Positions 1,060 to 18,116 of a DNA stretch of 64,000 nt are shown here, in pieces; within the stretch, counting starts at the first letter, position 1; each line of letters opens with the position of its first letter. This DNA is from Minisyncoccia bacterium. GTDB taxonomy: Bacteria; Patescibacteriota; Minisyncoccia; Phycocordibacterales; UBA9973. The position numbers were made by a program, and so were the translations under genes. The stretch covers positions 2,220 to 66,219 of the forward strand of contig JBBSBF010000002.1 of NCBI GenBank assembly GCA_038251535.1. The letters run 5' to 3'. The notes beneath the pieces were generated by a model. That model was not told the DNA's origin and ran no database searches. It saw only the letters and a program-made list of their open reading frames with translations.

Positions 1060-1089
1060 TACTTTTCACTTTGATTTAAGTTCTTAGAA

Positions 1090-1119
1090 CCTTTGATTTT
1101 TTAATCAGAGGTTTTTTTA
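1090..1119 (+). terminator. rho-independent terminator
   Basis: 9-bp stem (cctttgatt / aatcagagg), loop tttt, then a T7 run. Confidence 0.5.
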
Positions 1120-1160
1120 TTACCTTTATTTTTATACTTCATTCTGCTAAGCTCGTTTGT

Positions 1161-2108: not shown

Positions 2109-2146
2109 AATTGTAAAAACCGTCCAATTTCTGTATAGTTTCTTTA

Positions 2147-2923: not shown

Positions 2924-4712
2924 TATGAAGTATTCATACAATTGGTTACAAAAACATATCGAAGAAAAACTTCCTCAACCCGAGATCCTCAAAGAGGCTA
3001 TTATTTTTCATGCATTTGAAGTAGAGAGTACGGAACAAAAAAATAGCGATACTATATTTGATATCAAAGTCTTGCCTGATCGAGCAGGAGATTGTTTGTC
3101 GCACTACGGTATGGCGCGAGAAATTGCAGGACTACTGAAACTAACTTTGAAAGAAAGCAATCTAGACGCACTTCCTGATGGAGCACTTATTCTTCCGGTG
3201 GATATAAAGAGTGATCTCTGTCGGCGGTATATAGCAATCCAAATGAACGAGGTGACTGTTGGCCCTTCGCCATCATGGCTTATAGATGCGCTCCAGAGTA
3301 TCGGACAAAAAAGTATCAACAACATTGTCGATGCGACAAACTACATCCTTTTTGATACTGGACAACCCACTCATGCATTTGATGCTGCAAAAGTAGATGG
3401 CGGGATCACTGTGCGACTCGCGCATGACAAAGAAACGATTATTACACTTTCAGAAGAAAATAAATCGCTTTCTCCCGACATGCTCGTTATTACTGACTAT
3501 CTTGGAGCGATCGCAATTGCTGGAGTGAAGGGAGGAAAGACTGCTGAAATTTCGACCAGTGGAACACCGACGACTTCTGTGATTCTTGAAGTAGCAAATT
3601 TTGATCCGACGAGTGTCCGTAAAACTGCACGATCCCTTGGTCTCGCAACTGATGCCTCAAAACGATTTGAAAACAATCTCTCTCCAGAGATCGCATACGA
3701 CGCAGCCTCACAGTTAGTTTCATTGATCAAAGAAATTGCAGGAGGAGTGGTAGTGGGAGTGAGAGATGTACACGCAGTTCCTCAAAAGCCGCGAAGTATT
3801 TCATTTACTGTTTCAGATATACAGCGGATCCTAGGCCTTGCGATCAACGGATACAATATCGAAGATGTGTTTGATCAATATCGGTACGTGTATACAAAAG
3901 AAGAAGACCAATTTGTACTTACTGTTCCAAATTGGCGTCAAGACATACAGTCTGTTGCAGATATCGCCGAAGAAGTGGGGAGGGTTGTTGGATACGATAA
4001 AGTCCCGACCTGTACACTGCCGATCATGTTTACTCCAAGTCATTCACCAGTGTACGAGCAGATTTGGATGACGAAGTTATGGCTTGCAAGAGAAAGGTAT
4101 CGTGAAGTTATGAACTATACATTTTGCAAAGGTGGTGAAGTTTCCATACTGGCGGGCGCAGCTGATAAAAACACACTTCGAAGCAATCTCTCCGATGCAA
4201 TCAAAGATAGTTTCGAGTTGAATAAAAAAAATGCACCGCTTTTGGGATTGTCTGATATCAAACTTTTTGAAATAGGCACCGTCTTTTTCCTTGATCGAGA
4301 AGAAATCCACGTCGCTACCGTCGATAAAGGATTGATCCAAGAACTACCACTTGATACCTTTATTAAGGAGCGAGAAATATCTTTGGTCGAAGACAATGCT
4401 ACGTCAGCGTTCGCAGAGGGCATGTTTACTCCATGGTCGATATATCCTTTCATTACACGTGACGTTGCAGTATGGATCTCTACATCCGAAGATCAGGCGA
4501 AACTGCACGATATCCTTGCTGTATTTGCCCGAGAGTACTGTATGAGGGAGCCAGTCCTGTTTGATCAATTTACCAAGGGCGACAGAACAAGTGTGGCATA
4601 TCGGCTTGTGTTTCAATCGCCGACTAAAACGCTTACAGACCAAGAAGTAGAATCTTTCATGGAAAAACTGTTGGTAGAAATACGCAATCAGTCCTCTTTT
4701 GAACTTCGGTAG
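2898..4712 (+). CDS. pheT: phenylalanine--tRNA ligase beta subunit (short form, 604 aa)
   Basis: B3/B4 and B5 domain signatures are present (FDIKVLPDRAGDCLSHYGMAREIA; SISFTVSDIQRILGLAINGYNIED), as is the FDAF C-terminal domain. It sits immediately downstream of pheS. Confidence 0.85.
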   Translation: MIFGLINFNMKYSYNWLQKHIEEKLPQPEILKEAIIFHAFEVESTEQKNSDTIFDIKVLPDRAGDCLSHYGMAREIAGLLKLTLKESNLDALPDGALILPVDIKSDLCRRYIAIQMNEVTVGPSPSWLIDALQSIGQKSINNIVDATNYILFDTGQPTHAFDAAKVDGGITVRLAHDKETIITLSEENKSLSPDMLVITDYLGAIAIAGVKGGKTAEISTSGTPTTSVILEVANFDPTSVRKTARSLGLATDASKRFENNLSPEIAYDAASQLVSLIKEIAGGVVVGVRDVHAVPQKPRSISFTVSDIQRILGLAINGYNIEDVFDQYRYVYTKEEDQFVLTVPNWRQDIQSVADIAEEVGRVVGYDKVPTCTLPIMFTPSHSPVYEQIWMTKLWLARERYREVMNYTFCKGGEVSILAGAADKNTLRSNLSDAIKDSFELNKKNAPLLGLSDIKLFEIGTVFFLDREEIHVATVDKGLIQELPLDTFIKEREISLVEDNATSAFAEGMFTPWSIYPFITRDVAVWISTSEDQAKLHDILAVFAREYCMREPVLFDQFTKGDRTSVAYRLVFQSPTKTLTDQEVESFMEKLLVEIRNQSSFELR

Positions 4713-4735
4713 AAACCTTTTACACCGTTGGCTAC

Positions 4736-5284
4736 ATGAGGTATACTGGTCCCATGAAGCATGCAAAAGTAATGATTAGTATCGCAGCACTGGCAGTCAT
4801 CGTAATCCTCGTTGTCGTCAACTCTAGAGGTCGAGTTGACAAGGCCGATACTCAGTTGCCACCACCGGACGCGACCTTGGCGGGACCTCAAGCTCCTATT
4901 CCTGAAAATATGTACGACACAAAAGTACCATTATTAAAAAATCGAACACAATTTAAAGACAATATGAAAATAGAAGTAACAAAAGAAGGCACGGGCGCAT
5001 CTATCACCAACGGACAAACTGCAGTTGTTGATTATGTCGGCAAACTCTCTGACGGTACTATCTTTGATGCAAGTAAAAACCATGGCGATGGATCGTTCTC
5101 TTTTAGCTTAGGGGCTGGTCAGGTAATTAAAGGTTGGGATGAGGGAGTGCTTGATATGAAAGTGGGGGAAAGTCGAACTTTGACCATACCACCAGATCTT
5201 GCATACGGACCAAGTGGGATTCCGCCGGTTATTCCACCAAATGCGACATTGGTGTTTGACGTTACGCTTTTGGGAATTAAATAA
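4736..5284 (+). CDS. FKBP-type peptidyl-prolyl cis-trans isomerase, membrane-anchored
   Basis: N-terminal TM helix, then a FKBP domain (VVDYVGKLSDGTIFDAS...GAGQVIKGWDEGVLDMKVGESRTLTIPPDLAYG). The true start may be MKHAKV at 4754. Confidence 0.85.
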   Translation: MRYTGPMKHAKVMISIAALAVIVILVVVNSRGRVDKADTQLPPPDATLAGPQAPIPENMYDTKVPLLKNRTQFKDNMKIEVTKEGTGASITNGQTAVVDYVGKLSDGTIFDASKNHGDGSFSFSLGAGQVIKGWDEGVLDMKVGESRTLTIPPDLAYGPSGIPPVIPPNATLVFDVTLLGIK

Positions 5285-5298
5285 CGACAATAGAAATT

Positions 5299-6804
5299 AT
5301 GAAACAAACAATAAGGCGATTTTCCTTTCCAGTGTATCGTTGGTGGAAACGGCAATCAAAAACAGTCAAAATAATCCTCGGACTTGTTGTCGCCATCTTC
5401 ATCATCGTGTTGGTAAGTAAAAATAACTCGTCAGCCACCACTTCAATCGAAACGGTAAAACGTCAAAACCTTGTTCGAAGTATTTCAGCAAGTGGTATGG
5501 TTGTTAGTTCGACCGATCTCTCGCTTGGATTTGAACAAAGCAAAAAGATCGCCACAATCCCCGTACATGTTGGCGACACCGTTAAGCAGGGAACAATATT
5601 AGCGACACTTTCAAATGGTACTGAGCGTGCAGCTGTCTCTTCTGCAAAAGGAACGCTCCTTGCTGCACGTGCTCGGTATGAAAAAGTGCTTGACGGGTCT
5701 TCTAACGAAGAAATAAAACTTGCACAGATCCAACTTGATAATGCAAAAAGAACGCAGGCAAACTTTGTTGCGAACGCACGACGCAAGCTCTTCTCAGACA
5801 GTCTTATCGCCGACCCACAAAGTGGCACTAGTGACACTGCTCCAGTTATCACTGGCAACTTTAACGGAGAAGATGAAGGTGAATATCGGATATCTTTTTC
5901 AGCGACGAGTAATAACGATGTTCGGTACAATGGCATCGAACAAGGGACAACTGAGCTCAGTGACTTACCAAAGCCGTTGGGAACAAAAGGTCTGATGATT
6001 GCCTTTTATGGAGCAAACTATAACACCAATAGTAGCTGGAAGGTGTTGATTCCCAATAAAAATAGCACAAACTATACCAACAACCTCAACGCATACCAGG
6101 CAGCCCAGGCGAGTGCAGATGCAGCTATTGCCGAAGCACAAGCCAAACTCGATATCACTCGAGCGACCGCTCGGCAACCTGATATCGATGCAGCCCTTGC
6201 TGATATGGTAACTGCACAGGCGGGAGTAGATACTGCAAATGCAGTTCTAGAAAAAACGATACTCCGCGCTCCAGCTGACGGCACGATCACAGCAGTAAAC
6301 GTAAAGGTTGGAGAAATACCTCAGCTCGACAAGATCGCCATTGCACTCCAGGATGTATCAAACCTATACCTTGAAGCAAATGTAAATGAAAGCAATATCA
6401 AGAGCGTTCTCATTGGACAACCAGTTTCTGTTACTTTCGATGCGTTTCCTGGTGATACGTACCACGCCAGCGTTTCTTCTATTGACCCTGCTGCGACGAT
6501 TGAAAATAACGTCGTCAACTACAAAGTTAAGGCACTTTTGACTGACACTGCAGGAATCAAGCCAGGTATGACGGCAAATATGGTTATCAAAACAGCAGAA
6601 TTATTTAGCATACTTGTACTACCAAATCGTGTGATCGATACAAAGGATGGTATACAGAGTGTATTACTTGTTACTGATGAACGACACGACAAGGCGGTCG
6701 AAAAACCGGTAACGATCGGACTAAAGGGGGATGGGGATATGGTCGAAATACAAAGTGGATTGTCCGAAGGTGATCGGGTTAAATGGATAGCGAAAACAAA
6801 ATAA
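5299..6804 (+). CDS. HlyD-family periplasmic adaptor (membrane fusion protein) of an ABC-type efflux system
   Basis: N-terminal TM, a lipoyl/beta-hairpin motif (IPVHVGDTVKQGTILATL), coiled-coil segments, and an ILRAPADGTITAVNVKVGE beta-barrel motif. It is directly followed by the FtsX permease and the ABC ATPase. Confidence 0.75.
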   Translation: MKQTIRRFSFPVYRWWKRQSKTVKIILGLVVAIFIIVLVSKNNSSATTSIETVKRQNLVRSISASGMVVSSTDLSLGFEQSKKIATIPVHVGDTVKQGTILATLSNGTERAAVSSAKGTLLAARARYEKVLDGSSNEEIKLAQIQLDNAKRTQANFVANARRKLFSDSLIADPQSGTSDTAPVITGNFNGEDEGEYRISFSATSNNDVRYNGIEQGTTELSDLPKPLGTKGLMIAFYGANYNTNSSWKVLIPNKNSTNYTNNLNAYQAAQASADAAIAEAQAKLDITRATARQPDIDAALADMVTAQAGVDTANAVLEKTILRAPADGTITAVNVKVGEIPQLDKIAIALQDVSNLYLEANVNESNIKSVLIGQPVSVTFDAFPGDTYHASVSSIDPAATIENNVVNYKVKALLTDTAGIKPGMTANMVIKTAELFSILVLPNRVIDTKDGIQSVLLVTDERHDKAVEKPVTIGLKGDGDMVEIQSGLSEGDRVKWIAKTK

Positions 6805-6808
6805 AAAA

Positions 6809-8086
6809 ATGGTTCAGAAAAAAAGCAGTTGGGTAAAAATAAAAACCGATAGCACTGTAGGGATGTTTTTGGCGAAGCGTGATATTAAGCGGGCTAACCC
6901 ATGGACGACAATCCTTATCGTTTTTGTCATGCTCCTTACCTTTCTGAACCTTGTCGTTGTGTCGGGGATATTGGTTGGATTGATCGAAGGCTCAGTGAGT
7001 GCAGATGAAAGGTATTCTTCGGGTGATATATTGATATCCCCATTTCTAAACAAGTCCTATATCGAACAGACCCCCGAGGTTGTCGCGACTGCAAAAACAG
7101 TGCAGGGGTTTCAGGCACTCGCCGTGAGATACACTGCAGGTGCACGTGTTGAGTCAAATTATCGAACAACGATTCGACCGGATGAATTGCGCGACGGTGC
7201 GGGCGCGTCGTTATTGGGGATTGATCCCACAGTTGAACATGCATTTTCAGGTGTCGATAAGTTTATTATCGAAGGATCGTTTTTAGAACCAGGGGATAGT
7301 GATAGTGTCGTACTCGGTAAAAACCTCTTGTATAAATATACTCCGATTGAAGCTCCTGGGTTTCAGACACTCAAAGATGTTTCGATTGGATCTCAAATCA
7401 AAATTACTATTGGGGATGTGCAAAAAGAGTACTATGTGAAAGGTATTATTTCGAGTAAGGTCGATACGTTTGATGGATCGGTGATCATGCTTGATAGTGA
7501 AGCGCGAAAGCTTATTGGGCGTTCGGATTATAATGCAAATCAAATTGCGATTCGCCTTGTTCCAGGGACCGATCCAGTCGTTGCAAAGGCGATGTTGTTA
7601 GAAAGCGGTGCTGGTCAGTACGGACGAGTACAGACCCACGATGAAGCATTGCCCAAATTCCTCAAAGACATCCAAGCGACATTTGCCATACTGGGAAATG
7701 CGATTAGTTCTATCGGGCTTGTCGTGGCGGCAATCACGATATTTATCGTTATCTTCGTCAATGCGATTACACGCAGGCGGTATATTGGTATTTTAAAAGG
7801 TATTGGGATTACGCCTCGAGCAATTGCTATTTCGTACATTGTGCAATCTATTTTTTATGCTCTCGCAGGTTCTATCATCGGTATTGTTGTAGTGTTTGCA
7901 GTATTGAAACCGCTTTTTGTCGCGCATCCGATTGATTTTCCTTTTTCTGACGGGATTCTCGTTGCGACAGTACCAGGAACGTTGGCGCGTACGGCGATAT
8001 TACTCATTGCGACTATCGTTGCCGGATATATTCCCGCTCGAATTGTCATTAAACAAAATACGCTTAGTGCGATTTTAGGAAGATAA
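6809..8086 (+). CDS. ABC transporter permease, FtsX/MacB family
   Basis: One N-terminal TM, a large extracytoplasmic domain and three C-terminal TMs. Lies between the adaptor and the ATPase. Confidence 0.75.
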   Translation: MVQKKSSWVKIKTDSTVGMFLAKRDIKRANPWTTILIVFVMLLTFLNLVVVSGILVGLIEGSVSADERYSSGDILISPFLNKSYIEQTPEVVATAKTVQGFQALAVRYTAGARVESNYRTTIRPDELRDGAGASLLGIDPTVEHAFSGVDKFIIEGSFLEPGDSDSVVLGKNLLYKYTPIEAPGFQTLKDVSIGSQIKITIGDVQKEYYVKGIISSKVDTFDGSVIMLDSEARKLIGRSDYNANQIAIRLVPGTDPVVAKAMLLESGAGQYGRVQTHDEALPKFLKDIQATFAILGNAISSIGLVVAAITIFIVIFVNAITRRRYIGILKGIGITPRAIAISYIVQSIFYALAGSIIGIVVVFAVLKPLFVAHPIDFPFSDGILVATVPGTLARTAILLIATIVAGYIPARIVIKQNTLSAILGR

Positions 8087-10011: not shown

Positions 10012-10560
10012 ATGTCAAAACAAGAACACTCAGGAGTGCGTCACTGGTACGCTATTCACACTTATTCTGGATATGAAAACGCAGTATTGCGTAATCTCAG
10101 ACAACGTATCGAAAGTCTCGGTATGCAAGAAAAAATATACAACGTTGTTGTACCGATCGAAAAGAAAATCAAAATCAAAGGAGGAAAGCGAGTTGAGGTA
10201 GAAGAGAAGGTATACCCAGGGTACGTACTCGTCGACATGATTGTTGACGATGATTCATGGTTCGTCGTACGCAACACTCCACGAGTTACTGGATTTGTCG
10301 GCGCAGGAGTTACTCCAGTTCCACTAACACAAAAAGAGATTGATTACCTCATTGGCCGAATGGATGATGATACAGTGGCTCAACACACGATCGATCTCGA
10401 AGTAGGAGAGACGATCATTATCAACGATGGACCGTTCAAAGAGCTTGAAGGAAAAGTTTCAGAGGTCGATTCAGAACGCGGCAAGGTCAAAGTGCTCGTT
10501 TCTCTTTTTGGTCGTGAGACCCCAGTCGAGCTCGATTTCCTCCAGGTGAAAAAACTATAG
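10012..10560 (+). CDS. nusG: transcription termination/antitermination factor NusG
   Basis: NGN domain ([14 protein letters not shown]) and a KOW motif, in the secE-nusG-rplK order. Confidence 0.9.
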
Positions 10561-10943: not shown

Positions 10944-11369
10944 ATGGCAAAAAACATCACCAAACGAATCAAAGTTCAAGCAATGGGAGGCGCTGCGACC
11001 CCAGCACCACCCCTCGGCCCTGCACTCGGACAAGCAGGTGTCAACATCAGCGACTTCGTGCAGAAGTTCAATGCAGCGACCCAGGACCAAAAGGGAGAGA
11101 AACTAGGAGTTAAAATCGTAGTCTACGAAGATCGTAGTTACGACTTTGTCGTCTCGACCCCTCCCGCAACAGCACTTCTTTTGAAAGCTGCGGGACTTGA
11201 AAAGGGTTCCCAAAAGCCTCGTACGAGTAAGGCAGGCTCAGTGACCAAGGCACAAATACGAGCAATCGCAGAGCGCAAAATGCCGGATTTGAACGCCAAC
11301 GACATTGAGGCCGCGATGAAGATCATCGAAGGATCTGCTCGAAGCGCTGGGATCGAAGTGGTTGGGTAA
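10944..11369 (+). CDS. rplK: 50S ribosomal protein L11
   Basis: Strong L11 signature ([22 protein letters not shown]...GSVTKAQI). It is followed by a terminator rather than rplA. Confidence 0.95.
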
Positions 11370-11439: not shown

Positions 11440-11994
11440 TTATCTTGAATATTTAAATATTCTAAACGGATACAAATTTTTCTCATCTATAGGATGATCT
11501 TGCAAGATTTCTGTTTTCCACATACCGAGATAGGCAGGAGGTGTAAATATCGTATCTCCCGCAAACATAGCACTGACAACAGTTGCGTAAATCTTAGAAA
11601 CATGAAAATTGTCACCAGGGGTAAATGATAGTGCTTGAGTGTAGATATCACCACCACCAATGCAAAATACTTTTTTGCCATGACAAACCTTTTCGCGTTT
11701 GAGTAGTCTATAGATTGCATCCCATGAGCTGCATACAAATGTCATCGCGTTTGTTGGGTTGGGTTGGTATAGGTCATTATTGGTCAGAATAATAACCACT
11801 CTTTCAGGTAATCCTTTAGGAAATGACTCGTATGTTTTTCTTCCCACGATACATACACTTCCAGCACCATTTTGTTTTGTAAGAGTTACAAACCAGTGCA
11901 TATCAGCAGGAAGCCACCATGGTATCTTTCCGTCTATTCCGATAACGAAATTTGTGCCATATCCGACAACAATAGATAAATCTATACGTTCCAT
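11440..11994 (-). CDS. folA: dihydrofolate reductase (paralog 1)
   Basis: DHFR motifs VIGIDGKIPW, IVGRKTYESFPKGLPERVVIILT and FCIGGGDIYTQAL. Confidence 0.85.
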   Translation of the reverse strand: MERIDLSIVVGYGTNFVIGIDGKIPWWLPADMHWFVTLTKQNGAGSVCIVGRKTYESFPKGLPERVVIILTNNDLYQPNPTNAMTFVCSSWDAIYRLLKREKVCHGKKVFCIGGGDIYTQALSFTPGDNFHVSKIYATVVSAMFAGDTIFTPPAYLGMWKTEILQDHPIDEKNLYPFRIFKYSR

Positions 11995-12013
11995 AATTTT
12001 TAATTTTCTTTTA

Positions 12014-12040
12014 CATTACTATTTTTGATACTTTTGTCAA
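12014..12040 (-). promoter_or_regulatory. promoter of folA paralog 1 (TTGACA-15 nt-TAATGT, minus strand)
   Basis: The hexamers are read from the sequence. The whole leader is about 85% identical to the leader of folA paralog 2 at 12660-12700. Confidence 0.4.
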
Positions 12041-12097
12041 ATCTGTTTTAAATAAAAAAAGCCGCTCCTCATGGGACGGCTTCTGTGTTGTGTTTCC

Positions 12098-12646
12098 CTA
12101 TGCAGTAAGTAAGTTTTCATATACTTCAACATCAAAATCATGCGAATTACCTTTATCTTTTTCACCACCAGGGACTCTTTTTTTAAAAGGTACCGTCACT
12201 AGGAGTTTATAAATAATTTCATTGTATGAAGGAAAAAATATATCCCCTTCAAATTCACCGTGTACTTTGGTGATATGAAGTTGATCAATAACAATATCTG
12301 GATTATTCAGTGCAAGTGTATATATCTGTGCACCACCAATAATCCAAATGATTTCACCTGATTCCTCTTCTGCTAAATATAAAGCTTGTTCCATAGTGGA
12401 AACATACTTAAAACCTTGCGGCAAACCTTTGGCAAAAGGGTTGTGAGTAATTACAATGTTGGCGCGTCTTGGAAGCGGTTTACCCAAAGATAGTGCTGTA
12501 TTCTTTCCCATAATAACCGGGCAATTAATGGTCTTTGGTTTAAAGTTTAGAAGGAAATCATCAGTAAGATGCCAGTCTGGCATTTGTAAACCGTTTCCCA
12601 TGACATTATTTTTTCCATGGGCAACAATAAGTTTTTTTTTCTTCAT
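12098..12646 (-). CDS. folA: dihydrofolate reductase (paralog 2)
   Basis: DHFR motifs VMGNGLQMPDW, IMGKNTALSLGKPLPRRANIVITHN and WIIGGAQIYTLAL. Confidence 0.8.
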   Translation of the reverse strand: MKKKKLIVAHGKNNVMGNGLQMPDWHLTDDFLLNFKPKTINCPVIMGKNTALSLGKPLPRRANIVITHNPFAKGLPQGFKYVSTMEQALYLAEEESGEIIWIIGGAQIYTLALNNPDIVIDQLHITKVHGEFEGDIFFPSYNEIIYKLLVTVPFKKRVPGGEKDKGNSHDFDVEVYENLLTA

Positions 12647-12771
12647 ATTTTCTATTTTAAATTTTCTTTTACCTTACTATTTTTATATCTTTTGTCAACT
12701 TTGACTTATGTGTAGAAAAGGATAATGTTCACTCAAATAAACAAAATTTCACAACCAAAATTCTTTGAAAA

Positions 12772-13401
12772 ATGAATAAAAAAAATAAAATTCTAAACAT
12801 CATAGGAACAGATGTTTCTGAAGAAGACCGTATTATTGAAGATCACCAGGAACTTATAAGTGTAATTGATTTTTTTCGAAACGAAGGCAAAAAGATTGTA
12901 TGGACAATGGGTGCATATGATATTAAACATGTTGGACATGATAGATATCTGAGAGAAGGGAAAAGTTATGGCGATATATTGATTGTTGGTCTTGACTCAG
13001 ATGAATATGTAAAAAAAGAAAAAGGTGATAATCGACCAATTGTTCCATATAAAGAAAGAGCGGAACAATTAGCATATTGTCGTCCAGTAAATATCATCAC
13101 TATTCTCAATACAAAAGAAGAAGCTACAAAACTTATGCAGGATATGAAACCTGATGTGGTAGTTCTTTCATTTAGTAGCACTACGGAGGCAATAGAAGTA
13201 TACGAAAACAGAATGAAAGAAAAATACGGCCCATATTGTAAAGAAGTAAAGATTTTGGAGCGACAAGCTGAAACTTCCACAACTGCTCGAATTAGACTTG
13301 TTATCATTGAAGGTTCACAAGAATTTGTCGAAATTGTTAAAGAATGCACCGACAAATTAGCTGTTGCTATTAAAAACTTCTTCACAAAAATCGGAGGTTA
13401 A
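12772..13401 (+). CDS. cytidylyltransferase-like nucleotidyltransferase (TagD / RfaE-domain-II-like HxGH family)
   Basis: HxGH motif (TMGAYDIKHVGHDRYL), ILIVGLDSDEYV, and a C-terminal ISTT-like motif (ETSTTARIRL). Confidence 0.6.
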   Translation: MNKKNKILNIIGTDVSEEDRIIEDHQELISVIDFFRNEGKKIVWTMGAYDIKHVGHDRYLREGKSYGDILIVGLDSDEYVKKEKGDNRPIVPYKERAEQLAYCRPVNIITILNTKEEATKLMQDMKPDVVVLSFSSTTEAIEVYENRMKEKYGPYCKEVKILERQAETSTTARIRLVIIEGSQEFVEIVKECTDKLAVAIKNFFTKIGG

Positions 13402-13403
13402 TC

Positions 13404-14258
13404 ATGAAAGAAGCAATTGTGTTATATATGCCGGATTTAAATAAGTCCTATAGGGACTTCTTCAAAAAAAATGGCCGAAAAGTAGATACCATTTTTTTGA
13501 TCAGTGAACAAATAATAGAAAAAATTACTGATCCAGGCTTTGTGTGGCAAATTGAAAAAGATTTACGAGCTCTTAATGCATTGGAAATGTTACGATCTGT
13601 TTCAGTTCAAGATTATGCACATGAGTTTAAAATTCTTACAGAAAATAATCTGAACGGATTTGACCAAGTAATTATTCCTGACGAGGATGAAATTGTAGAA
13701 AATGTATTGAAAGAGTTGTATCCAGGTATTCAACCTGTCAAAGAAAAATGGTTTATCCGATGGGGTAGGAAAACAGTTCTCTCTAAACGCGCCCCAGTAC
13801 CAAGTGCAAGTATTTCTATTGATGTATTCGACAGAGAAGTAATGGACAAAGCATTTGGAATTGCTGAGCATAGTTCGGATTGGTGGAGGCAAGTTGGAGT
13901 AATACTTTTACCCGTAAACGGAGAACCTATTTCAACTTTTAACCATCATTTACCAAACCAAAGATCACCGTATATAAATGGAGATCCAAGAACAAACTTT
14001 AAACCAGGTGAAAGTATAGAGATTTCTACTGCTATTCACGCTGAGGCGTCTGCAATTGCACATGCTGCAAATAAAGGGATTTCTCTAAATGGTGGAAGTA
14101 TTTATGTTTCGACATTTCCATGTCCAAATTGTGCATATCTAATTATCGAATCAGGTATTAAAAAGGTCTATTATTGCGAAGGGTATTCACTTCTCAATGC
14201 AGCTGAACTTTTTACTCAATTCGGAGTTTCGATGATTTTTGTTGATGTTCCAAATTAA
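13404..14258 (+). CDS. CMP/dCMP-deaminase-fold zinc deaminase fused to an uncharacterised N-terminal domain of about 150 aa
   Basis: The C-terminal half carries the HAE...PCxxC zinc motif (AIHAEASAIAHAANKG...STFPCPNCAYLIIESGIKKVYY). I recognise no motif in the N-terminal half. Confidence 0.65.
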   Translation: MKEAIVLYMPDLNKSYRDFFKKNGRKVDTIFLISEQIIEKITDPGFVWQIEKDLRALNALEMLRSVSVQDYAHEFKILTENNLNGFDQVIIPDEDEIVENVLKELYPGIQPVKEKWFIRWGRKTVLSKRAPVPSASISIDVFDREVMDKAFGIAEHSSDWWRQVGVILLPVNGEPISTFNHHLPNQRSPYINGDPRTNFKPGESIEISTAIHAEASAIAHAANKGISLNGGSIYVSTFPCPNCAYLIIESGIKKVYYCEGYSLLNAAELFTQFGVSMIFVDVPN

Positions 14259-14262
14259 AACA

Positions 14263-14292
14263 AGGCTGTTGAATGTATCAACAGCCTTTTTA
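14263..14292. terminator. bidirectional rho-independent terminator
   Basis: Perfect 10-bp stem (aggctgttga / tcaacagcct), 5-nt loop and a T-run. Confidence 0.6.
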
Positions 14293-14293
14293 T

Positions 14294-14737
14294 TTACTTA
14301 AGAGGAATTCTAACACCTGGTCCATTGGGGTCGGCGGCGATTATGTGCCCATGGAGTCTCTTTACAGTAGCGCCTGTAAAATCAGTATTACCATACCGCA
14401 TCCAATAACCTCCACCTTCAATATTGTATTCCTTATTTATTTCTCCAATAACTTTCTGAAGTTCAACTACTGCTTCAACAGGGAGTTCTTCCAAAACTTC
14501 AGCATATACAGTAGAAATTACCATAAAATGATGAATAGATCCTGGATAGGGATGAGCTGATTTTGTTACAAACCAGTGATTATATTTTTTCAGTATAGGG
14601 TATGGGTGATTTCTACCAATATAATGGGGATCGAAAGGATCGATGCCAGCTTCAATTATTTTTTGAAGCATGGAAACGTACTCCTCTCTTCCTCTCGCAT
14701 TTTTAATATTTACAAAGACTTTTTGATCTTGTTGCAT
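14294..14737 (-). CDS. HIT-like (histidine-triad superfamily) protein with a degenerate triad
   Basis: HIT-fold spacing is present (FVTKSAHPYPGSIHHFMV ... GNTDFTGATVKRLHGHIIA). The triad reads H-G-H-I-I, so only two of the three His are present. Confidence 0.4.
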   Translation of the reverse strand: MQQDQKVFVNIKNARGREEYVSMLQKIIEAGIDPFDPHYIGRNHPYPILKKYNHWFVTKSAHPYPGSIHHFMVISTVYAEVLEELPVEAVVELQKVIGEINKEYNIEGGGYWMRYGNTDFTGATVKRLHGHIIAADPNGPGVRIPLK

Positions 14738-14825
14738 AAAAGTTAATTTTCATTACTTTGCCATATAATGTAGAAATAAGCAAATAAAAAGCCCATCTTC
14801 TTTTTAGAGAAAACGGGCTGTAATT

Positions 14826-15758
14826 TTAAACCGTAATATCACCTTTGATCTTCGGGTGAGGATCATAATTCCTAATTTCGACATCTTCGGGTTTAAATTC
14901 AAAGATGTCAGTTATATTAGTATTTAGATGAAGCGTCGGAAGCACTTTCGGTGTACGCTTAAGCTGTAGTTTCATTTGCTCAACATGGTTTTCATATATG
15001 TGAGCACTGGATTCCGTAACGATAAGTCTTCCTGGCTTATACCCAGTAACCTGAGCAAGCATAGATAATAGCAATGCATATTGTGCAATGTTAAACGGAA
15101 CGCCCAAAAAGAAATCTCCGCTTCGCTGATACATTTTCATGCTTAAATAATTTTCATCCGCAGAAACACTACATTGAAAAAATGGATGACATGATCTCAA
15201 TTTTACTTTATCAAGAGCAAGATCTGCTGGATTCCATGCACTGACAAGCATCCCTTTTGAATGCGGTGCACGTTTTATTTCTTCAATCAAGTTTTTGATT
15301 TGATCAATAGAGTACTTTTTATATTCATCAGGTACCCATTCTGTATTTTCGGCATGTCTAGGTACGAATTGAAATACATCCCAATTACGCCATTGTTTGC
15401 CGTATATTGGACCCAAGTTACCATTTCCATCAGCCCATTCGTCCCAAAGTTTTACCTTTTTTTCATTCAACCATTTTACGTTGGTATTGCCAGAAAGCAT
15501 CCAAACAAGTTCAGTCGCGATGGTTTTCATCGGCATGGATTTGGTAGTCATAAGTGGAAAACCTTTTGTAAGGTCAAATTCCATTTGAACGGTGCCAAAA
15601 AATTCATGACCGGGTGTGTTTCTGCCTTTTTTCGGAGGTTGATCCAACAATGGTTGAACCCATCGAAGATATTCATAATCCACATGAAAAGGTGTGTAGT
15701 TTTCTGTATGGTACGGCATAATTCCTGTCCGCCCCCAAGTTTCTAATTGTGTATTCAT
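14826..15758 (-). CDS. thyA: thymidylate synthase, ThyA family
   Basis: ThyA signatures are present (LWDEWADGNGNLGPIYGKQWRNW, SAWNPADL, catalytic Cys in LRSCHPFFQ, and RSGDFFLGVPFNIAQYALL). The conserved Asn in PFNIAQ indicates dUMP specificity. Confidence 0.85.
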   Translation of the reverse strand: MNTQLETWGRTGIMPYHTENYTPFHVDYEYLRWVQPLLDQPPKKGRNTPGHEFFGTVQMEFDLTKGFPLMTTKSMPMKTIATELVWMLSGNTNVKWLNEKKVKLWDEWADGNGNLGPIYGKQWRNWDVFQFVPRHAENTEWVPDEYKKYSIDQIKNLIEEIKRAPHSKGMLVSAWNPADLALDKVKLRSCHPFFQCSVSADENYLSMKMYQRSGDFFLGVPFNIAQYALLLSMLAQVTGYKPGRLIVTESSAHIYENHVEQMKLQLKRTPKVLPTLHLNTNITDIFEFKPEDVEIRNYDPHPKIKGDITV

Positions 15759-15825
15759 TTTTTTTAAATTTTCTTAAACACTACGGAATACTGGAGAAAA
15801 GTCAAATTTCTGCTAGACTCTTTCT

Positions 15826-17568
15826 ATGAAAGAGATACTCGAAGATTTGATCAAGGCCGGCTTAAAAGAGCTCTGGGGGATAGTCGACGCTATTTTTGTT
15901 GTCGAAGAGCCAAAGGATTTGGACAATGGGGATTATGCCAGTAATGTGGCGTTGGTGGTTGCCAAGCAGCTCGACAATCCTTCGACAGGCTCAGGACTAG
16001 GGAATCCGAAGGAAATCGCTGAAAGCTTGGCAGCATATTTGAATAAATACAAAAGTGAGGAGATCGAGAGCGTGTCTGTCGCAGGTGCTGGCTTTATCAA
16101 CTTCACACTCAAGCAAGAATATTTTGCAGAAAAAGTAAAAGAAATAATTGAACGAAAAGATGAATGGGGGAAGAGTGATACGTTTGCGGGCAAAAAAATA
16201 TTGGTGGAGCATTCGAGTCCCAATCTCTTCAAGCCATTCCATATTGGGCACTTGATGAACAACACGATAGGGGAATCAATCACGAGACTTGCGCAGTGTT
16301 CGGGAGCAATAGTTACCACGATGACATTTCCATCTGATATCTCGCTTGGAGTTGCAAAGGCGATTTTTATTCTTCTCGAAGAACACACAACCTCCGCTAG
16401 GTCAGACCTAGCGGAAAGCGTAGAAGATCTCGGAAACGCCTATGTAGAGGGAACGAAGCGCTATGATGAAGATGAGAGCACGCATGCAAGAATAAAGGAA
16501 ATAGCCGACAATCTCTATGGCGGAATAGATAGTCCAGAATGGAAACTATTTGAAATGTGTAAGAAACTCAATATTTCTTATTTCGAACACATCGTTCTAA
16601 AACTCGGTTCTCACTTTGATGCATATATTTACGAAAGCGAAGCAGGTGTCGTCGGCAAAGATGTCGTACAGAAAGAAACACCCCGTGTATTTACCCAAAG
16701 CGAAGGAGCGATTGTGTACATCCCTGATGAAAGTCGTAAAGATATCAACACAGCAGTATTTATCAATTCCCAAGGCAATCCTACCTATGAAGCAAAAGAT
16801 ATCGGGCTATTGAAATTGAAATTTGACAGGTACACTCCTCATACTTCTATCTTTGTCACCGACAACCAACAAGTGTCGCATTTCGAAGTGGTCCTCGACG
16901 CAGCACAGAAAATCAATCGTGAGTGGTCAGACAAGAGTCTCCATGTACATCATGGCCGCATGTCGTTTAAAGGGCAAAAGATGTCGTCTCGTCTTGGAGG
17001 AGTACCACTAGTAGATGATGTGCTTGAGACAGTCATACAAGAAGTGAAAATAAAGAATCCTGATATGAGTGTGAGCGACGCAGAAGTGATTGCAATCGCT
17101 GCACTCAAATTTTCAATCCTGCGTGCCTCGGTCGGCAAAGACATCAACTTCGATCCAGATCTCTCATTATCATTTGATGGGGATAGTGGTCCGTATCTGC
17201 AGTACAGTGTCGTGCGTGCACAGTCGGTATTACAGAAATCCCCGAGGCAAGGCCTAGGGATAAGTTCAAGTGTGAGGAAAGACCTCACACCAGTCGTTGT
17301 AGATAATAATTGGGAGACGACGACACTTGAAAAAGTACTGATTCATTTCCCCGAGATTGTCCAACGTTCGATCAATGAGTGGGCACCACATTATGTTGTT
17401 GGATATCTCCTCGACCTCGCCCAAAGCTTCAATAGTTGGTATGCCACTACCAAGATCCTTGATGACACTGACGCTTCTAACTACAAACTTGCACTCACTG
17501 CTGCCTTTGCACAAACGATGCACAATGGTCTCCATTTGCTTGGGATTGAAGTTCCGGAAAAGATGTAG
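15826..17568 (+). CDS. argS: arginine--tRNA ligase
   Basis: N-terminal Arg_tRNA_synt_N-like domain, a HIGH motif (PFHIGHLMNNTIGE) and a C-terminal DALR anticodon-binding domain. Confidence 0.9.
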   Translation: MKEILEDLIKAGLKELWGIVDAIFVVEEPKDLDNGDYASNVALVVAKQLDNPSTGSGLGNPKEIAESLAAYLNKYKSEEIESVSVAGAGFINFTLKQEYFAEKVKEIIERKDEWGKSDTFAGKKILVEHSSPNLFKPFHIGHLMNNTIGESITRLAQCSGAIVTTMTFPSDISLGVAKAIFILLEEHTTSARSDLAESVEDLGNAYVEGTKRYDEDESTHARIKEIADNLYGGIDSPEWKLFEMCKKLNISYFEHIVLKLGSHFDAYIYESEAGVVGKDVVQKETPRVFTQSEGAIVYIPDESRKDINTAVFINSQGNPTYEAKDIGLLKLKFDRYTPHTSIFVTDNQQVSHFEVVLDAAQKINREWSDKSLHVHHGRMSFKGQKMSSRLGGVPLVDDVLETVIQEVKIKNPDMSVSDAEVIAIAALKFSILRASVGKDINFDPDLSLSFDGDSGPYLQYSVVRAQSVLQKSPRQGLGISSSVRKDLTPVVVDNNWETTTLEKVLIHFPEIVQRSINEWAPHYVVGYLLDLAQSFNSWYATTKILDDTDASNYKLALTAAFAQTMHNGLHLLGIEVPEKM

Positions 17569-17639: not shown

Positions 17640-18116
17640 ATGATTCACGATACAGAAGAACGATCACTTATCATCATTAAGCCCGATGCGATCCAGCGTA
17701 ATTTGGTTGGAGAGATTATTACACGTTTTGAACGAAAGGGGCTCAAGATTATCGGTATGAAAATGATGCACCTGAAAGACGCACTTGTTGAGGAACACTA
17801 TGCGCATATCAAAGATAAGCCGTTTTTTCCTCGTATAAAGCGCTTTATGATGTCGAGTCCAGTCGTGGTGATGGCTGTGGCAGGACTCAAGGCGATTGAT
17901 AGTATACGTATTATTGTTGGGCCAACAAAAGGATTTGAAGCTGCAGCAGGTACACTCCGTGGAGATCTGTCGTTGTCGATGCAGTCAAATGTTGTGCACG
18001 CATCTGATTCATTAGAGAACGGTAAAGCGGAGATCAAACGGTTTTTTGAGGAGGATGAGATTGTTGAATACGATAAAGTTGATACGAAGTTTATTTTTTC
18101 AGACGACTTGATGTAA
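17640..18116 (+). CDS. ndk: nucleoside-diphosphate kinase
   Basis: NDK signature including the active-site His region (NVVHASDS) and RGDLSLS. Confidence 0.9.
   Translation: MIHDTEERSLIIIKPDAIQRNLVGEIITRFERKGLKIIGMKMMHLKDALVEEHYAHIKDKPFFPRIKRFMMSSPVVVMAVAGLKAIDSIRIIVGPTKGFEAAAGTLRGDLSLSMQSNVVHASDSLENGKAEIKRFFEEDEIVEYDKVDTKFIFSDDLM

What the first reader, a model, noticed from the sequence alone, without database searches (positions are those of the whole stretch)
12772..15758. Thymidylate island with unusual accessories: cytidylyltransferase-like NTase, a deaminase fused to an unknown 150-aa domain, and a HIT-like protein with an incomplete triad next to thyA
The canonical dTMP route is complete here: a dCMP-deaminase fold, then ThyA (with the conserved Asn indicating dUMP specificity), then two DHFRs. 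Three non-canonical components are interleaved with it. One is a TagD/RfaE-II-like HxGH nucleotidyltransferase (TMGAYDIKHVGH ... ETSTTARI). One is a zinc deaminase whose N-terminal half matches nothing I recognise. The third is a HIT-like protein whose His triad reads H-G-H-I-I. NTase and HIT enzymes together make and break nucleotide-phosphate adducts. The cluster could be a salvage or modified-nucleotide pathway, such as nucleotide-sugar or NDP-X formation or scavenging of nucleoside monophosphates from a host, grafted onto thymidylate synthesis in a biosynthetically reduced organism.
Basis: partly seen in the sequence, partly recalled or inferred. Interest (0 to 1): 0.55.

Follow-up and report, generated by a model that had tools for sequence, protein, structure and literature searches.

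The report
Extended thymidylate gene module in CPR bacteria
Next to ordinary thymidylate synthase and dihydrofolate reductase genes sit three uncharacterised partners (a cytidylyltransferase-type enzyme, a two-domain dCMP-type deaminase and a HIT nucleotide enzyme) that travel with them in hundreds of ultra-small (CPR) bacteria, which suggests a still unknown step or control in making the DNA base T.

Summary
Window 11440-15758 encodes two DHFRs, a cytidylyltransferase-family NTase, a 284-aa protein (a conserved 140-aa N-domain plus a dCMP-deaminase-type domain), a HIT-fold protein and a canonical ThyA.

The NTase and HIT genes are not stray housekeeping genes.
- In 39 loci from different GTDB species found through the HIT protein, 37 carry the two-domain deaminase, 36 the NTase and 34 ThyA.
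- Five of five distant deaminase homologues looked up have the NTase just upstream and the HIT convergent downstream. One of them is in an actinobacterium.
- Among the 150 best HIT-family representatives, 33 are DHFR-HIT fusions, one is HIT-ThyA and one is deaminase-HIT. One NTase is fused to thymidylate kinase.

The "incomplete triad" is a quirk of this lineage. The first His is Arg and the nucleophile His is invariant. Most orthologues have HxHxH and some have HxHxQ. The "unknown" N-domain is widespread and Rossmann-like, with a PVxHxGY loop that is degenerate in this window.

I found no description of the module in the literature. The function is inferred: most likely a dedicated branch that turns cytosine deoxynucleotides into dUMP for ThyA using alpha-phosphate chemistry. 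Substrates are untested. This is a new variant of a known kind, of moderately high interest.

The parts
11440..11994 (-). DHFR-a, a second and divergent dihydrofolate reductase (184 aa)
   Evidence: Pfam DHFR_1 E 2.4e-31. Only 30% identical to DHFR-b. More similar to DHFRs of other CPR lineages than to the orthologue in the closest relative.
12098..12646 (-). DHFR-b, the module's dihydrofolate reductase (182 aa), divergent from the NTase gene
   Evidence: Pfam DHFR_1 E 4.9e-35. Best match to the single DHFR of the closest related locus, L009 (41%). A DHFR is present in 28 of 39 related loci.
12772..13401 (+). Cytidylyltransferase-family nucleotidyltransferase (209 aa) with H53-x-G55-H56 and T168-S-T170 motifs
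   Evidence: Pfam PF01467, 48.5 bits. The family profile hits ECT 3elb (2.4e-31), HldC 5x9q, CCT and GCT. Invariant residues are listed. The gene lies directly upstream of the deaminase gene in 36 of 39 HIT-anchored loci and in 5 of 5 deaminase-anchored loci.
13404..13823 (+). N-domain of the deaminase protein (aa 1-140): a conserved Rossmann-like domain. The family motifs are PVxHxGY, RDxRAL, PDED and FLRWD. The window copy reads PDLNKSY.
   Evidence: AF2 pLDDT 87 with a beta-alpha-beta pattern. No Pfam or PDB sequence hit. Motif statistics over 146 sequences are. A weak hhalign match places HxGY on the NTase HxGH (E 0.02-0.05).
13824..14258 (+). Zinc deaminase domain of the dCMP-deaminase clade (H212-A-E214, P239-C240-x-x-C243)
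   Evidence: Pfam PF00383, 58.9 bits. The best structural matches are T4, human, S. mutans and PBCV-1 dCMP deaminases.
14262..14288 (.). Hairpin followed by a T-run on both strands, between the convergent deaminase and HIT genes (terminator-like in both directions)
   Evidence: Consensus scan. A pattern match only.
14294..14737 (-). HIT-fold protein (147 aa) with motif R127-L-H129-G-H131-I-I. It belongs to a HIT subfamily that is linked or fused to thymidylate enzymes.
   Evidence: AF2 and Foldseek against Hint. The family holds 622 representatives. Fusions to DHFR, ThyA and a deaminase are shown. H129 is invariant.
14790..14819 (-). Terminator-like hairpin between ThyA and the HIT gene
   Evidence: Consensus scan. 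A pattern match only.
14826..15758 (-). Canonical thymidylate synthase ThyA (310 aa)
   Evidence: Pfam 314 bits. TIGR03284, 289.7 bits against a cut-off of 108. The alignment to 6auj (9.5e-77) conserves the catalytic Cys and the Asn of PFNIA, with an insertion of about 20 aa.

Best explanation
The block is one copy of a deeply conserved thymidylate-synthesis module of Patescibacteria (CPR). It is built from two convergent units: ThyA-(DHFR)-HIT, and NTase followed by a two-domain deaminase.

Shown:
- The five families co-occur and stay adjacent across CPR classes and in one actinobacterium.
- The NTase and deaminase genes abut or overlap.
- The HIT domain is repeatedly fused to DHFR, and once each to ThyA and to a deaminase. 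An NTase is fused to thymidylate kinase.
- The residues needed for chemistry are kept: HxGH and TSTT in the NTase, HxE and PCxxC in the deaminase, and the nucleophile His in the HIT protein.
- ThyA is a canonical dUMP methylase.

Inferred:
- The three accessory proteins form the entry branch that delivers dUMP to ThyA from cytosine deoxynucleotides. The CT-family NTase and the HIT enzyme both act at a nucleotide alpha-phosphate. The NTase makes an NMP-phosphate adduct from an NTP and releases PPi. The HIT enzyme breaks such adducts to give an NMP. The deaminase converts C to U between or after these steps. The net reaction would be dCTP (or dCDP) to dUMP.
- This is functionally like T4 gp56 plus Cd, or human DCTPP1 plus DCTD, but built from different enzyme families.
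- The N-domain, which looks like a diverged cytidylyltransferase-type Rossmann domain, most likely docks the deaminase onto the NTase, as the two tandem CT domains of ECT pair with each other. Alternatively, or in addition, it binds a nucleotide.

My probabilities: about 0.9 that the five genes form one dedicated functional unit, about 0.45 that the unit's extra job is dUMP supply from cytosine deoxynucleotides, and about 0.2 for any particular order of steps.
For: Conservation:
- In the HIT-anchored census of 39 GTDB species loci, 37 carry the N-domain deaminase, 36 the NTase, 34 ThyA and 28 DHFR. Thirty-two have HIT, deaminase, NTase and ThyA together, and most gaps are at contig ends.
- The block is the same in L007/L008 despite different flanks (TopA, rpsB-tsf).
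- Deaminase-anchored look-ups at 34-42% identity have the NTase upstream, the HIT downstream and ThyA in 5 of 5 cases, including Phycicoccus flavus.
- De novo clustering finds no other recurrent family except the neighbouring rplK and nusG.

Fusions:
- 33 of the 150 top HIT representatives are DHFR-HIT. P0209 is HIT-ThyA and P0296 is deaminase-HIT.
- L033 encodes a Tmk-NTase fusion in one ORF.

Gene junctions:
- The NTase stop and the deaminase start lie between -4 and +56 nt apart.

Catalytic residues retained.

Family chemistry:
- The NTase is nearest to ECT, HldC, CCT and GCT.
- The HIT protein is nearest to Hint and Fhit type hydrolases.
- The deaminase core is nearest to dCMP deaminases. 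Its best NCBIfam and PADLOC core matches are to dCTP-deaminating relatives.

A recognised need for a dCTP-to-dCMP step upstream of dCMP deaminase is documented for human DCTPP1 (abstract of PMC7162842).
Against: - No substrate has been tested for any of the three proteins.
- A two-enzyme make-and-break cycle is a roundabout way to hydrolyse dCTP.
- dUTPase sits in or next to some copies of the module (L001, L005, L009, L048, L050), so a conventional dUMP source coexists with it.
- DHFR-HIT fusions may simply reflect the gene order ThyA>DHFR>HIT and do not say which step HIT serves.
- The N-domain's similarity to the NTase fold is not statistically established (hhalign E 0.02-0.05, probability 1-2%). 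I could not run a fold search on the isolated domain.
- In this window the N-domain signature His and Gly are replaced, so whatever that loop does is dispensable or altered here.
- The third HIT motif position switches between His and Gln, and the first between His and Arg. This leaves hydrolase versus phosphorylase or transferase chemistry open.
Confidence: 0.45

Rival explanations
1. Regulatory complex. The NTase and the N-domain do not turn over substrate in the pathway. They act as a nucleotide sensor (dCTP/dTTP or CTP) that replaces the canonical allosteric site of dCMP deaminases. The HIT protein is a separate pool-sanitising or salvage hydrolase co-expressed with ThyA and DHFR.
For: The canonical DCTD allosteric motif G(Y/W)N(A/G) (PMC12088426) is not kept. 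The family reads [AGTS][YFH]N[HRK]H, with the fourth position never A or G. The Zn-binding cap insert of classical dCMP deaminases (PMC3239186) is replaced by a Cys-free insert with an invariant GDPR. CT-family proteins bind CTP tightly. The N-domain is fused to the deaminase, which is where a regulatory domain would sit.
Against: The NTase keeps every catalytic signature across 71 sequences, although these same residues also bind the triphosphate. The HIT protein is as tightly linked as the NTase, which a generic sanitiser would not be. A sensor role gives no particular reason for the Tmk-NTase fusion.
Confidence: 0.2
2. Triphosphate-level route. The deaminase works on dCTP (or dCDP), as CDADC1 and the anti-phage dCTP deaminases do. 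The HIT enzyme then strips the product to dUMP, acting as a HIT-type dUTP/dUDP nucleotidohydrolase. The NTase plays an auxiliary part.
For: The deaminase core scores best against dCTP-deaminating relatives (NF041025 E 4e-21 against ComEB 3e-13; PADLOC dCTPase 4e-23). Extra conserved basic residues lie near the active-site motif (H/R/K181, H182, R162, R196). CDADC1 shows that a DCTD-like domain with an added N-terminal domain can be (d)CTP-specific through Lys and Arg contacts (PMC12088426). HIT chemistry (His attack on the alpha-phosphate) fits release of PPi or Pi.
Against: The core similarity covers only about 70 residues and is far below both family cut-offs. Classical dUTPase co-occurs in several module copies. 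No NTP- or NDP-hydrolysing HIT relative was identified here. The role of the NTase is left unexplained.
Confidence: 0.15
3. Modified-pyrimidine or nucleotide-sugar pathway. The NTase, deaminase and HIT protein make a non-canonical pyrimidine nucleotide, for DNA hypermodification or a nucleoside natural product, using a ThyA-like enzyme.
For: The actinobacterial copy (L049) also carries a second ThyA-like protein fused to a pterin-binding DUF4346 domain, a HAD hydrolase and a ParB-CE protein. That is reminiscent of modification clusters.
Against: In CPR the ThyA is canonical (Cys and Asn conserved, about 50% identity to solved thymidylate synthases). It is paired with DHFR, SHMT and FolD, which a hydroxymethylase would not need. 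No kinase, glycosyltransferase or other tailoring genes recur in the module. There is no phage homologue of the HIT protein, and phage NTase relatives sit in sugar contexts.
Confidence: 0.05
4. Coincidental synteny. The NTase is an ordinary envelope-precursor enzyme (TagD/HldC-like) and the HIT protein an ordinary Hint. They merely happen to sit near thyA because gene order is inherited.
For: Most loci lie next to the same secE-nusG-rplK cluster (29 of the loci clustered), so part of the conservation is vertical inheritance.
Against: The block is retained where the flanks differ and in an actinobacterium. Fusions to DHFR, ThyA, a deaminase and Tmk exist. The equivalog models for RfaE-II, TagD and CoaD are all far below cut-off. 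The start and stop codons of the NTase and deaminase genes overlap.
Confidence: 0.03

Closest known systems
thyA-folA gene pair, and the protozoan DHFR-TS fusion
   Same: ThyA and DHFR are adjacent and functionally coupled. Synteny of thyA with folA, and widespread folA, glyA and folD in CPR, are documented (PMC11974145).
   Different: Here three further proteins (a CT-type NTase, an N-domain deaminase and a HIT protein) are as conserved as the pair itself. The recurrent fusion is DHFR-HIT, not DHFR-TS.
Phage T4 dCTPase/dUTPase (gp56) + dCMP deaminase (Cd) + Td + Frd; human DCTPP1-DCTD-TYMS axis
   Same: The pathway logic matches what I infer: a dCTP-to-dCMP (or dUMP) feeder, then dCMP deaminase, thymidylate synthase and DHFR. 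The deaminase domain is structurally closest to T4 Cd and human DCTD. DCTPP1's role is described in the abstract of PMC7162842. The T4 enzymology is from my own knowledge.
   Different: The putative feeders here belong to the cytidylyltransferase (HUP Rossmann) and HIT superfamilies, not to the dUTPase-like or all-alpha MazG-like families. Their activity is untested.
Ethanolamine-phosphate cytidylyltransferase (ECT; PDB 3elb) and the GCT/CCT/HldC cytidylyl- and adenylyltransferases
   Same: These are the best solved relatives of the NTase (2.4e-31), with the HxGH and (R)TxGISTT-like motifs. ECT has two tandem CT domains, which is a model for an NTase plus N-domain pair.
   Different: No equivalog model is reached (RfaE-II 93.9 against 181.5; TagD 31.8 against 165.4). 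The gene context is thymidylate synthesis rather than lipid or envelope synthesis. The second, CT-like domain sits on another polypeptide fused to a deaminase, and its homology to CT domains is unproven.
Hint/Fhit-branch HIT hydrolases, and HxHxQ-type HIT transferases or phosphorylases (GalT, Ap4A phosphorylase)
   Same: The HIT fold, the nucleophile His and a GxxV-x-H-phi-H-phi-H-phi-phi style motif. The best PDB matches are bacterial Hint-like proteins and Fhit. Some orthologues carry HxHxQ, as transferases do.
   Different: A distinct subfamily with an N-terminal helical extension and MRFGDT..TGATV before the triad. It is linked or fused to DHFR, ThyA and a deaminase. The window protein falls below the Pfam HIT cut-off and has Arg at the first His position.
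Two-domain DCTD-like deaminases: the anti-phage dCTP deaminase (AvcD type) and vertebrate CDADC1
   Same: A dCMP-deaminase-type catalytic domain preceded by an extra N-terminal domain. The core is similar to the anti-phage family. CDADC1 shows that such architectures can shift the substrate to (d)CTP (PMC12088426).
   Different: The N-domain here is neither a P-loop kinase-like domain nor an inactive deaminase. The scores are far below the family cut-offs (75 against 400). The context is a housekeeping thymidylate module, not a defence island.

Membership tests
HIT superfamily | HIT alpha/beta fold | tested here: met
   AF2 model pLDDT 82.4. Foldseek against PDB puts ecHint 3n1s and many other HIT structures at the top, at probability 1.0 and TM about 0.55-0.7.
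HIT superfamily | Histidine triad H-phi-H-phi-H-phi-phi with the middle His as nucleophile | tested here: inconclusive
   The window has R-L-H-G-H-I-I. The first His is Arg; the middle and third His are present. In the wider subfamily, 90 of 150 have HxHxH, 43 HxHxQ and 7 RxHxH. Only the middle His is invariant.
HIT superfamily | Pfam PF01230 gathering score | tested here: not met
   The window protein scores 16.7 bits against a cut-off of 21.5. Several orthologues and fusion proteins do pass, for example P0191 at 36 bits.
Cytidylyltransferase-like family (PF01467; GCT/CCT/ECT/HldC group) | HxGH motif after strand 1, a C-terminal (R)TxGISTT-like motif, and the Pfam gathering score | tested here: met
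   H53-V-G55-H56 and E-T168-S-T170-T-A-R-I are invariant or nearly so in 19 sequences. Pfam 48.5 bits against 21. The profile hits ECT, HldC, CCT and GCT.
RfaE domain II / HldC (heptose-1-P adenylyltransferase), TagD, CoaD equivalogs | NCBIfam equivalog trusted cut-offs | tested here: not met
   TIGR02199 93.9 against 181.5; TIGR01518 31.8 against 165.4; PPAT models 33-43 against 104-290.
dCMP deaminase / ComEB clade of the zinc deaminases | HxE and PCxxC zinc site, and the Pfam PF00383 gathering score | tested here: met
   H212-A-E214 and P239-C240-x-x-C243 are invariant. 58.9 bits against 25. The best structural matches are dCMP deaminases.
dCMP deaminase / ComEB clade of the zinc deaminases | Clade signatures listed in PMC3239186 (a bihelical insert with a second Zn site of 2 Cys + His; NA two residues after HxE) and the allosteric motif G(Y/W)N(A/G) (PMC12088426) | tested here: not met
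   The insert at aa 185-208 has no conserved Cys and has an invariant G-D-P-R instead. The position after HAE-A is S/A/G, not N. The allosteric motif reads [AGTS][YFH]N[HRK]. The ComEB equivalog scores 49.8 against 219.
Anti-phage dCTP deaminase (NF041025 / PADLOC dCTPase) | Full-length match including the N-terminal kinase-like domain, and the trusted cut-off | tested here: not met
   Only about 70 core residues match (aa 197-271). 75.4 bits against 400; PADLOC profile positions 432-498 of 630.
Thymidylate synthase ThyA (methylase) | The family model, the catalytic Cys and the dUMP-specifying Asn | tested here: met
   PF00303 314 bits; TIGR03284 289.7 against 108. The Cys of SCH aligns with PCH, and the Asn of PFNIA is conserved in the alignment to 6auj. 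Methyl versus hydroxymethyl transfer cannot be read from sequence, but DHFR linkage argues for methylase.
Dihydrofolate reductase FolA | Pfam PF00186 gathering score | tested here: met
   109 and 121 bits against 25 for the two copies.
HUP/cytidylyltransferase fold (for the deaminase N-domain) | Significant profile or structural similarity to CT-fold domains | tested here: inconclusive

The most novel reading that the evidence does not exclude
The NTase, the two-domain deaminase and the HIT protein form a previously unknown carrier route to dUMP. The NTase loads a deoxycytidylyl group from dCTP onto a phosphorylated acceptor, giving a dCDP-X or dinucleoside-diphosphate adduct. The deaminase recognises the adduct through its CT-like N-domain and converts C to U on the carrier. 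The HIT enzyme then releases dUMP directly to ThyA. dCTP would thus be converted to dUMP without ever producing free dUTP, in a large part of bacterial diversity.
Probability: 0.15. Interest if true: 0.85.

Novelty: new variant of a known kind. Interest (0 to 1): 0.66.

Why it matters
Thymidylate synthesis is among the best-studied and most drug-targeted pathways. CPR/Patescibacteria make up a large share of bacterial lineages yet have minimal metabolism. Three uncharacterised proteins are retained, ordered and even fused with ThyA, DHFR, a deaminase and Tmk in these reduced genomes. This implies that the textbook pathway is missing a step, a feeder or a control that these organisms need.

The proteins are small and soluble, come from known superfamilies, and have clear candidate substrates. 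The question of where dCMP or dUMP comes from in organisms that rely on dCMP deaminase becomes directly testable. The work also gives a functional context to a HIT subfamily (622 cluster representatives), to an unnamed domain found in hundreds of proteins annotated only as "deaminase", and to a CT-family clade currently mislabelled as RfaE/HldE.

Tried and rejected
- Sequence and profile searches of the N-domain against PDB and Pfam found nothing. hhalign against the NTase family gave a suggestive but non-significant match.
A narrower HIT alignment (A6) worked, but its search pattern (GATVx[HR]LH[AGV]H) biases the 39 loci towards HxHxH members.
- Phage origin. There is no phage homologue of the HIT protein. 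Phage relatives of the NTase are generic and sit in sugar contexts. PHROGs has nothing for the HIT protein.
- Defence system. PADLOC matches only the deaminase core.
- The unknown N-terminal domain of about 290 aa fused to the NTase in L017 and L027 has no Pfam, NCBIfam or PDB match.
- Other conserved unknown genes in the module. De novo clustering found none.
- The 55-nt element upstream of both DHFR genes is not found in related loci.
- Tmk, dUTPase, SHMT and FolD were not detected in the 64-kb window with the seeds available.
- Eight literature searches, for HIT with DHFR, thyA, dCMP deaminase, CPR and DUF4346, found no description of the module.

Full report
WHAT IS THERE

ORF listing and family scans give this gene map:
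- nusG (10012-10560, +) and rplK (10944-11369, +)
- DHFR-a (11440-11994, -) and DHFR-b (12098-12646, -)
- a cytidylyltransferase-family NTase (12772-13401, +)
- a 284-aa deaminase (13404-14258, +)
- a 147-aa HIT-like protein (14294-14737, -)
- ThyA (14826-15758, -)
- argS (15826-17568, +) and ndk (17640-18116, +)

The NTase passes Pfam CTP_transf_like (48.5 bits). It carries HVGH and ETSTTARI. Its solved relatives are ECT, HldC, CCT and GCT. It reaches no equivalog model; RfaE-II, TagD and CoaD are all far below cut-off.

In the deaminase, the dCMP_cyt_deam_1 domain covers only aa 143-258. Residues 1-140 match nothing by sequence.

The HIT-like protein is below the Pfam HIT cut-off (16.7 against 21.5). 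Its AlphaFold model (pLDDT 82) nevertheless matches Hint and other HIT structures at Foldseek probability 1.0.

ThyA is canonical. The catalytic Cys and the Asn of PFNIA align with solved thymidylate synthases at E 9.5e-77, with an insertion of about 20 residues.

One correction: the HIT motif is R127-L-H129-G-H131-I-I. The first His is missing and the nucleophile His is present.

ARE THE NTASE AND HIT GENES REALLY LINKED TO THYMIDYLATE SYNTHESIS?

1. Close relatives (L001-L006, L009) keep the same block between rplK/nusG and argS. Some add dUTPase and SHMT next to ThyA.

2. L007 and L008 have different flanks (topA on one side; SHMT, FolD and rpsB-tsf on the other). They keep DHFR | NTase-deaminase | HIT | ThyA. 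Their small ORF is a HIT homologue by hhalign, at probability 99%.

3. A scan of one genome per GTDB species with a HIT alignment returned 39 loci. All those with a taxon label are Patescibacteria: Saccharibacteria and many Paceibacterota lineages. My ORF and HMM census found the N-domain deaminase in 37, the NTase in 36, ThyA in 34 and DHFR in 28. HIT, deaminase, NTase and ThyA occur together in 32, and all five families in 27. Most absences are at contig ends. The usual layout is ThyA > (DHFR >) HIT > < deaminase < NTase.

4. Sampling from the other side, I looked up five deaminase homologues at 34-42% identity. All five have the NTase immediately upstream, a HIT homologue convergent downstream, and ThyA. 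One of them is in the actinobacterium Phycicoccus flavus (L049). The trio is therefore not only an inherited CPR gene order.

5. De novo clustering of all ORFs in these loci shows no further recurrent unknown family. Besides the five, only rplK and nusG recur, in 29 and 27 loci.

FUSIONS

An exhaustive HMMER search with the HIT alignment found 622 cluster representatives (376 at E below 1e-10). Among the best 150:
- 33 are DHFR-HIT fusions of about 280-340 aa
- one is DHFR-HIT-HIT
- one is HIT-ThyA (P0209; its cluster mate is HRH31222.1, annotated as thymidylate synthase in Candidatus Paceibacterota)
- one is deaminase-HIT (P0296)

In L033 a single ORF encodes thymidylate kinase (PF02223, E 3e-28) followed by the NTase. 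Because DHFR precedes HIT in the common gene order, DHFR-HIT fusions partly reflect adjacency. Even so, four different thymidylate-pathway partners are involved.

THE HIT SUBFAMILY

Across 48 diverse members only W55, Y64, G116 and H129 are invariant. H129 is the middle His of the triad. Of the 150 top representatives, 90 read HxHxH, 43 HxHxQ and 7 RxHxH. The distant module copies in L005 and L007 carry HxHxQ.

The incomplete triad of the window is therefore a minor lineage variant. The subfamily as a whole looks catalytically competent. Whether it hydrolyses or transfers to phosphate is open. Its best solved relatives by profile are bacterial Hint-like proteins and Fhit. Seven loci carry two HIT-family ORFs. 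In six of them (L010, L020, L025, L029, L033, L042) the two are tandem paralogues, and in four of these the other copy has a degenerate or HxHxQ motif.

THE DEAMINASE

The family of about 280 aa is large. There are 634 hits, and the best 120 are almost all 265-300 aa covering at least 96% of the query.

The N-domain is predicted with high confidence (pLDDT 87) as a Rossmann-like beta-alpha-beta domain. Its signature residues over 146 sequences are P10 (143), H13 (139), G15 (138), R55 (130), R119 (141) and W120 (140). These lie in the motifs PVxHxGY, RDxRAL, PDED and FLRWD. The window copy is one of nine deviants (PDLNKSY).

The motif sits after strand 1. The order of the later motifs recalls the cytidylyltransferase fold (HxGH after strand 1, a basic motif after helix B, an acidic motif after strand 4, a phosphate-binding motif after strand 5). 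That comparison rests on my recollection of the TagD topology. hhalign places HxGY on the NTase HxGH and R55 on the NTase RP motif, but only at E 0.02-0.05 and probability 1-2%. I treat CT-like as an inference, not a result.

The catalytic domain keeps HxE and PCxxC. It is structurally closest to the T4, human, S. mutans and PBCV-1 dCMP deaminases. It departs from classical clade signatures in three ways:
- The second-zinc cap insert described in PMC3239186 is replaced by a Cys-free insert with an invariant GDPR.
- The NA after HxE is not kept.
- The allosteric motif G(Y/W)N(A/G) (PMC12088426) reads [AGTS][YFH]N[HRK]H.

Its best NCBIfam and PADLOC core matches are to dCTP-deaminating relatives, far below membership thresholds.

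HOW IT MOST LIKELY WORKS

Shown: five families behave as one unit, the catalytic residues are retained, and the NTase and deaminase genes abut or overlap (-4 to +56 nt).

Established chemistry of the families, from general knowledge:
- CT enzymes attack the alpha-phosphate of CTP or ATP with a phosphate-ester acceptor, giving NMP-P-X and PPi.
- HIT enzymes attack the alpha-phosphate of NMP-X compounds through a His-NMP intermediate and release NMP.
- dCMP-type deaminases convert C to U.

Two of the three accessory enzymes come from families that handle cytosine nucleotides. The third produces NMPs, and ThyA needs an NMP.

The reading I favour is that this is the dUMP entry branch. It converts cytosine deoxynucleotides (dCTP or dCDP from ribonucleotide reduction, or salvage products) to dUMP, with the NTase and HIT enzyme doing the alpha-phosphate steps and the deaminase the C-to-U step. 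This is analogous in logic to T4 gp56 plus Cd and to human DCTPP1 plus DCTD (PMC7162842), but uses unrelated folds.

The N-domain would tether the deaminase to the NTase, as the tandem CT domains of ECT pair, or would bind a nucleotide. I put about 0.9 on a dedicated functional unit, about 0.45 on dUMP supply from cytosine deoxynucleotides, and no more than 0.2 on any specific order.

The most novel variant is a carrier route: dCTP to dCDP-X, then dUDP-X, then dUMP. It would explain why all three unusual parts co-evolve. I give it about 0.15.

Rivals:
- a regulatory NTase and N-domain sensor replacing the lost allosteric site (0.2)
- a triphosphate-level route with HIT acting as a dUTP/dUDP hydrolase (0.15)
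- a modified-base pathway (0.05; ThyA is canonical and DHFR-linked, and no tailoring enzymes recur)
- coincidental synteny (0.03)

Main points against my reading:
- Nothing has been tested biochemically.
- dUTPase co-occurs in several copies of the module.
- The make-and-break scheme is roundabout.
- The window's own N-domain has lost its signature His and Gly.

COMPARISON WITH WHAT IS KNOWN

Synteny of thyA with folA and the prevalence of folA, glyA and folD in CPR are published (PMC11974145). Eight full-text searches found no description of a HIT protein, a CT-type NTase or an N-domain deaminase as parts of a thymidylate module. The HIT subfamily and the N-domain have no Pfam, NCBIfam or PHROG model that the window proteins reach. 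Sources name these proteins "deaminase", "RfaE/HldE", "ATP adenylyltransferase" or "Ap4A hydrolase".

I class the finding as a new variant of a known kind: a thymidylate gene cluster with three undescribed obligate partners. It is not categorically new, because every part belongs to a known superfamily and the core pathway is classical.

LOCAL DETAILS OF THIS WINDOW
- The six-gene block has GC 0.33-0.38 and GC3 0.21-0.32, against 0.42-0.52 and 0.41-0.51 in the flanking genes.
- The two DHFRs are only 30% identical. DHFR-b is the module orthologue.
- A 55-nt direct repeat (82% identical) precedes both DHFR genes. A 23-nt partial copy precedes thyA. The repeat is absent from related loci.
- Hairpins followed by T-runs lie between the convergent deaminase and HIT genes (readable on both strands) and after thyA.

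LIMITS
- The 39-locus census was seeded with a pattern that favours HxHxH members.
- The taxonomy of the 622 representatives is unknown.
- L048 is labelled Pseudomonadales, but I could not check that label.
- The fold of the N-domain and any protein-protein contacts remain predictions.

Noticed in passing
window 11440-15758: The whole six-gene block (two DHFRs, NTase, deaminase, HIT, ThyA) is a compositional island. Its GC is 0.33-0.38 and GC3 0.21-0.32, against 0.42-0.52 and 0.41-0.51 for the flanking nusG, rplK, argS and ndk. Possible causes are replacement by a copy from a lower-GC relative, or different codon usage.
   Followed up: partly
window 11996-12050, 12654-12708, 15762-15784: A 55-nt direct repeat (82% identical) lies immediately upstream of both DHFR genes. 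On the coding strand it contains TTGACA. A 23-nt partial copy lies upstream of thyA. No match is expected by chance in the window. The repeat was not found in the related loci. It may be a shared promoter or operator.
   Followed up: partly
window 11440-11994 and 12098-12646: There are two tandem DHFR genes that are only 30% identical. The related loci examined each carry at most one DHFR. DHFR-b matches the orthologue in the closest relative. DHFR-a resembles DHFRs of other CPR lineages.
   Followed up: partly
L033 3097-4428 (-): A single ORF fuses thymidylate kinase (PF02223, E 3e-28) to the module NTase in a Saccharibacteria MAG.
   Followed up: yes
L017 9311-10750 (-) and L027 9307-10926 (-): In two Saccharibacteria MAGs the NTase carries a shared N-terminal domain of about 290 aa. 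It has no Pfam, NCBIfam or PDB sequence match. Its identity could reveal the NTase's co-substrate.
   Followed up: partly
L010, L020, L025, L029, L033, L042 (HIT genes near the anchor): These loci have tandem HIT paralogues. In four of the six, one copy has the canonical GATVxHLHAH motif and the other a divergent, degenerate or HxHxQ motif. In L033 and L042 both copies keep HxHxH. P0203 is DHFR-HIT-HIT and P0292 is HIT-HIT. The pair may form a heterodimer.
   Followed up: no
L049 (Phycicoccus flavus SAYU02000056.1) 587-7299: This is an actinobacterial copy of the NTase, N-domain deaminase and HIT trio. It also carries ThyA, a second ThyA-like protein fused to a pterin-binding DUF4346 domain (518 aa), a HAD hydrolase and a ParB-CE protein. 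No DHFR is in view.
   Followed up: partly
window 14826-15758 (ThyA aa ~128-149): ThyA carries an insertion of about 20 residues (FQFVPRHAENTEWVPDEYKKY) relative to the solved bacterial thymidylate synthases it aligns with.
   Followed up: no
L001 1-870 and L004 1-1497: The neighbouring isoleucyl-tRNA-synthetase-like gene (1128-1160 aa) has a histidine-phosphatase (PF00300 His_Phos_1) hit listed between its tRNA-synt_1 hits. That would be an unusual insertion in a class I synthetase.
   Followed up: no
L048 8464-9030 and L050 8883-9449: A second CTP_transf_like gene sits next to thyA in these loci. It is NadD-like (GGAFDPPHLGH) and does not match the module NTase profile. Tmk and dUTPase lie within 4 kb of the module there.
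   Followed up: partly
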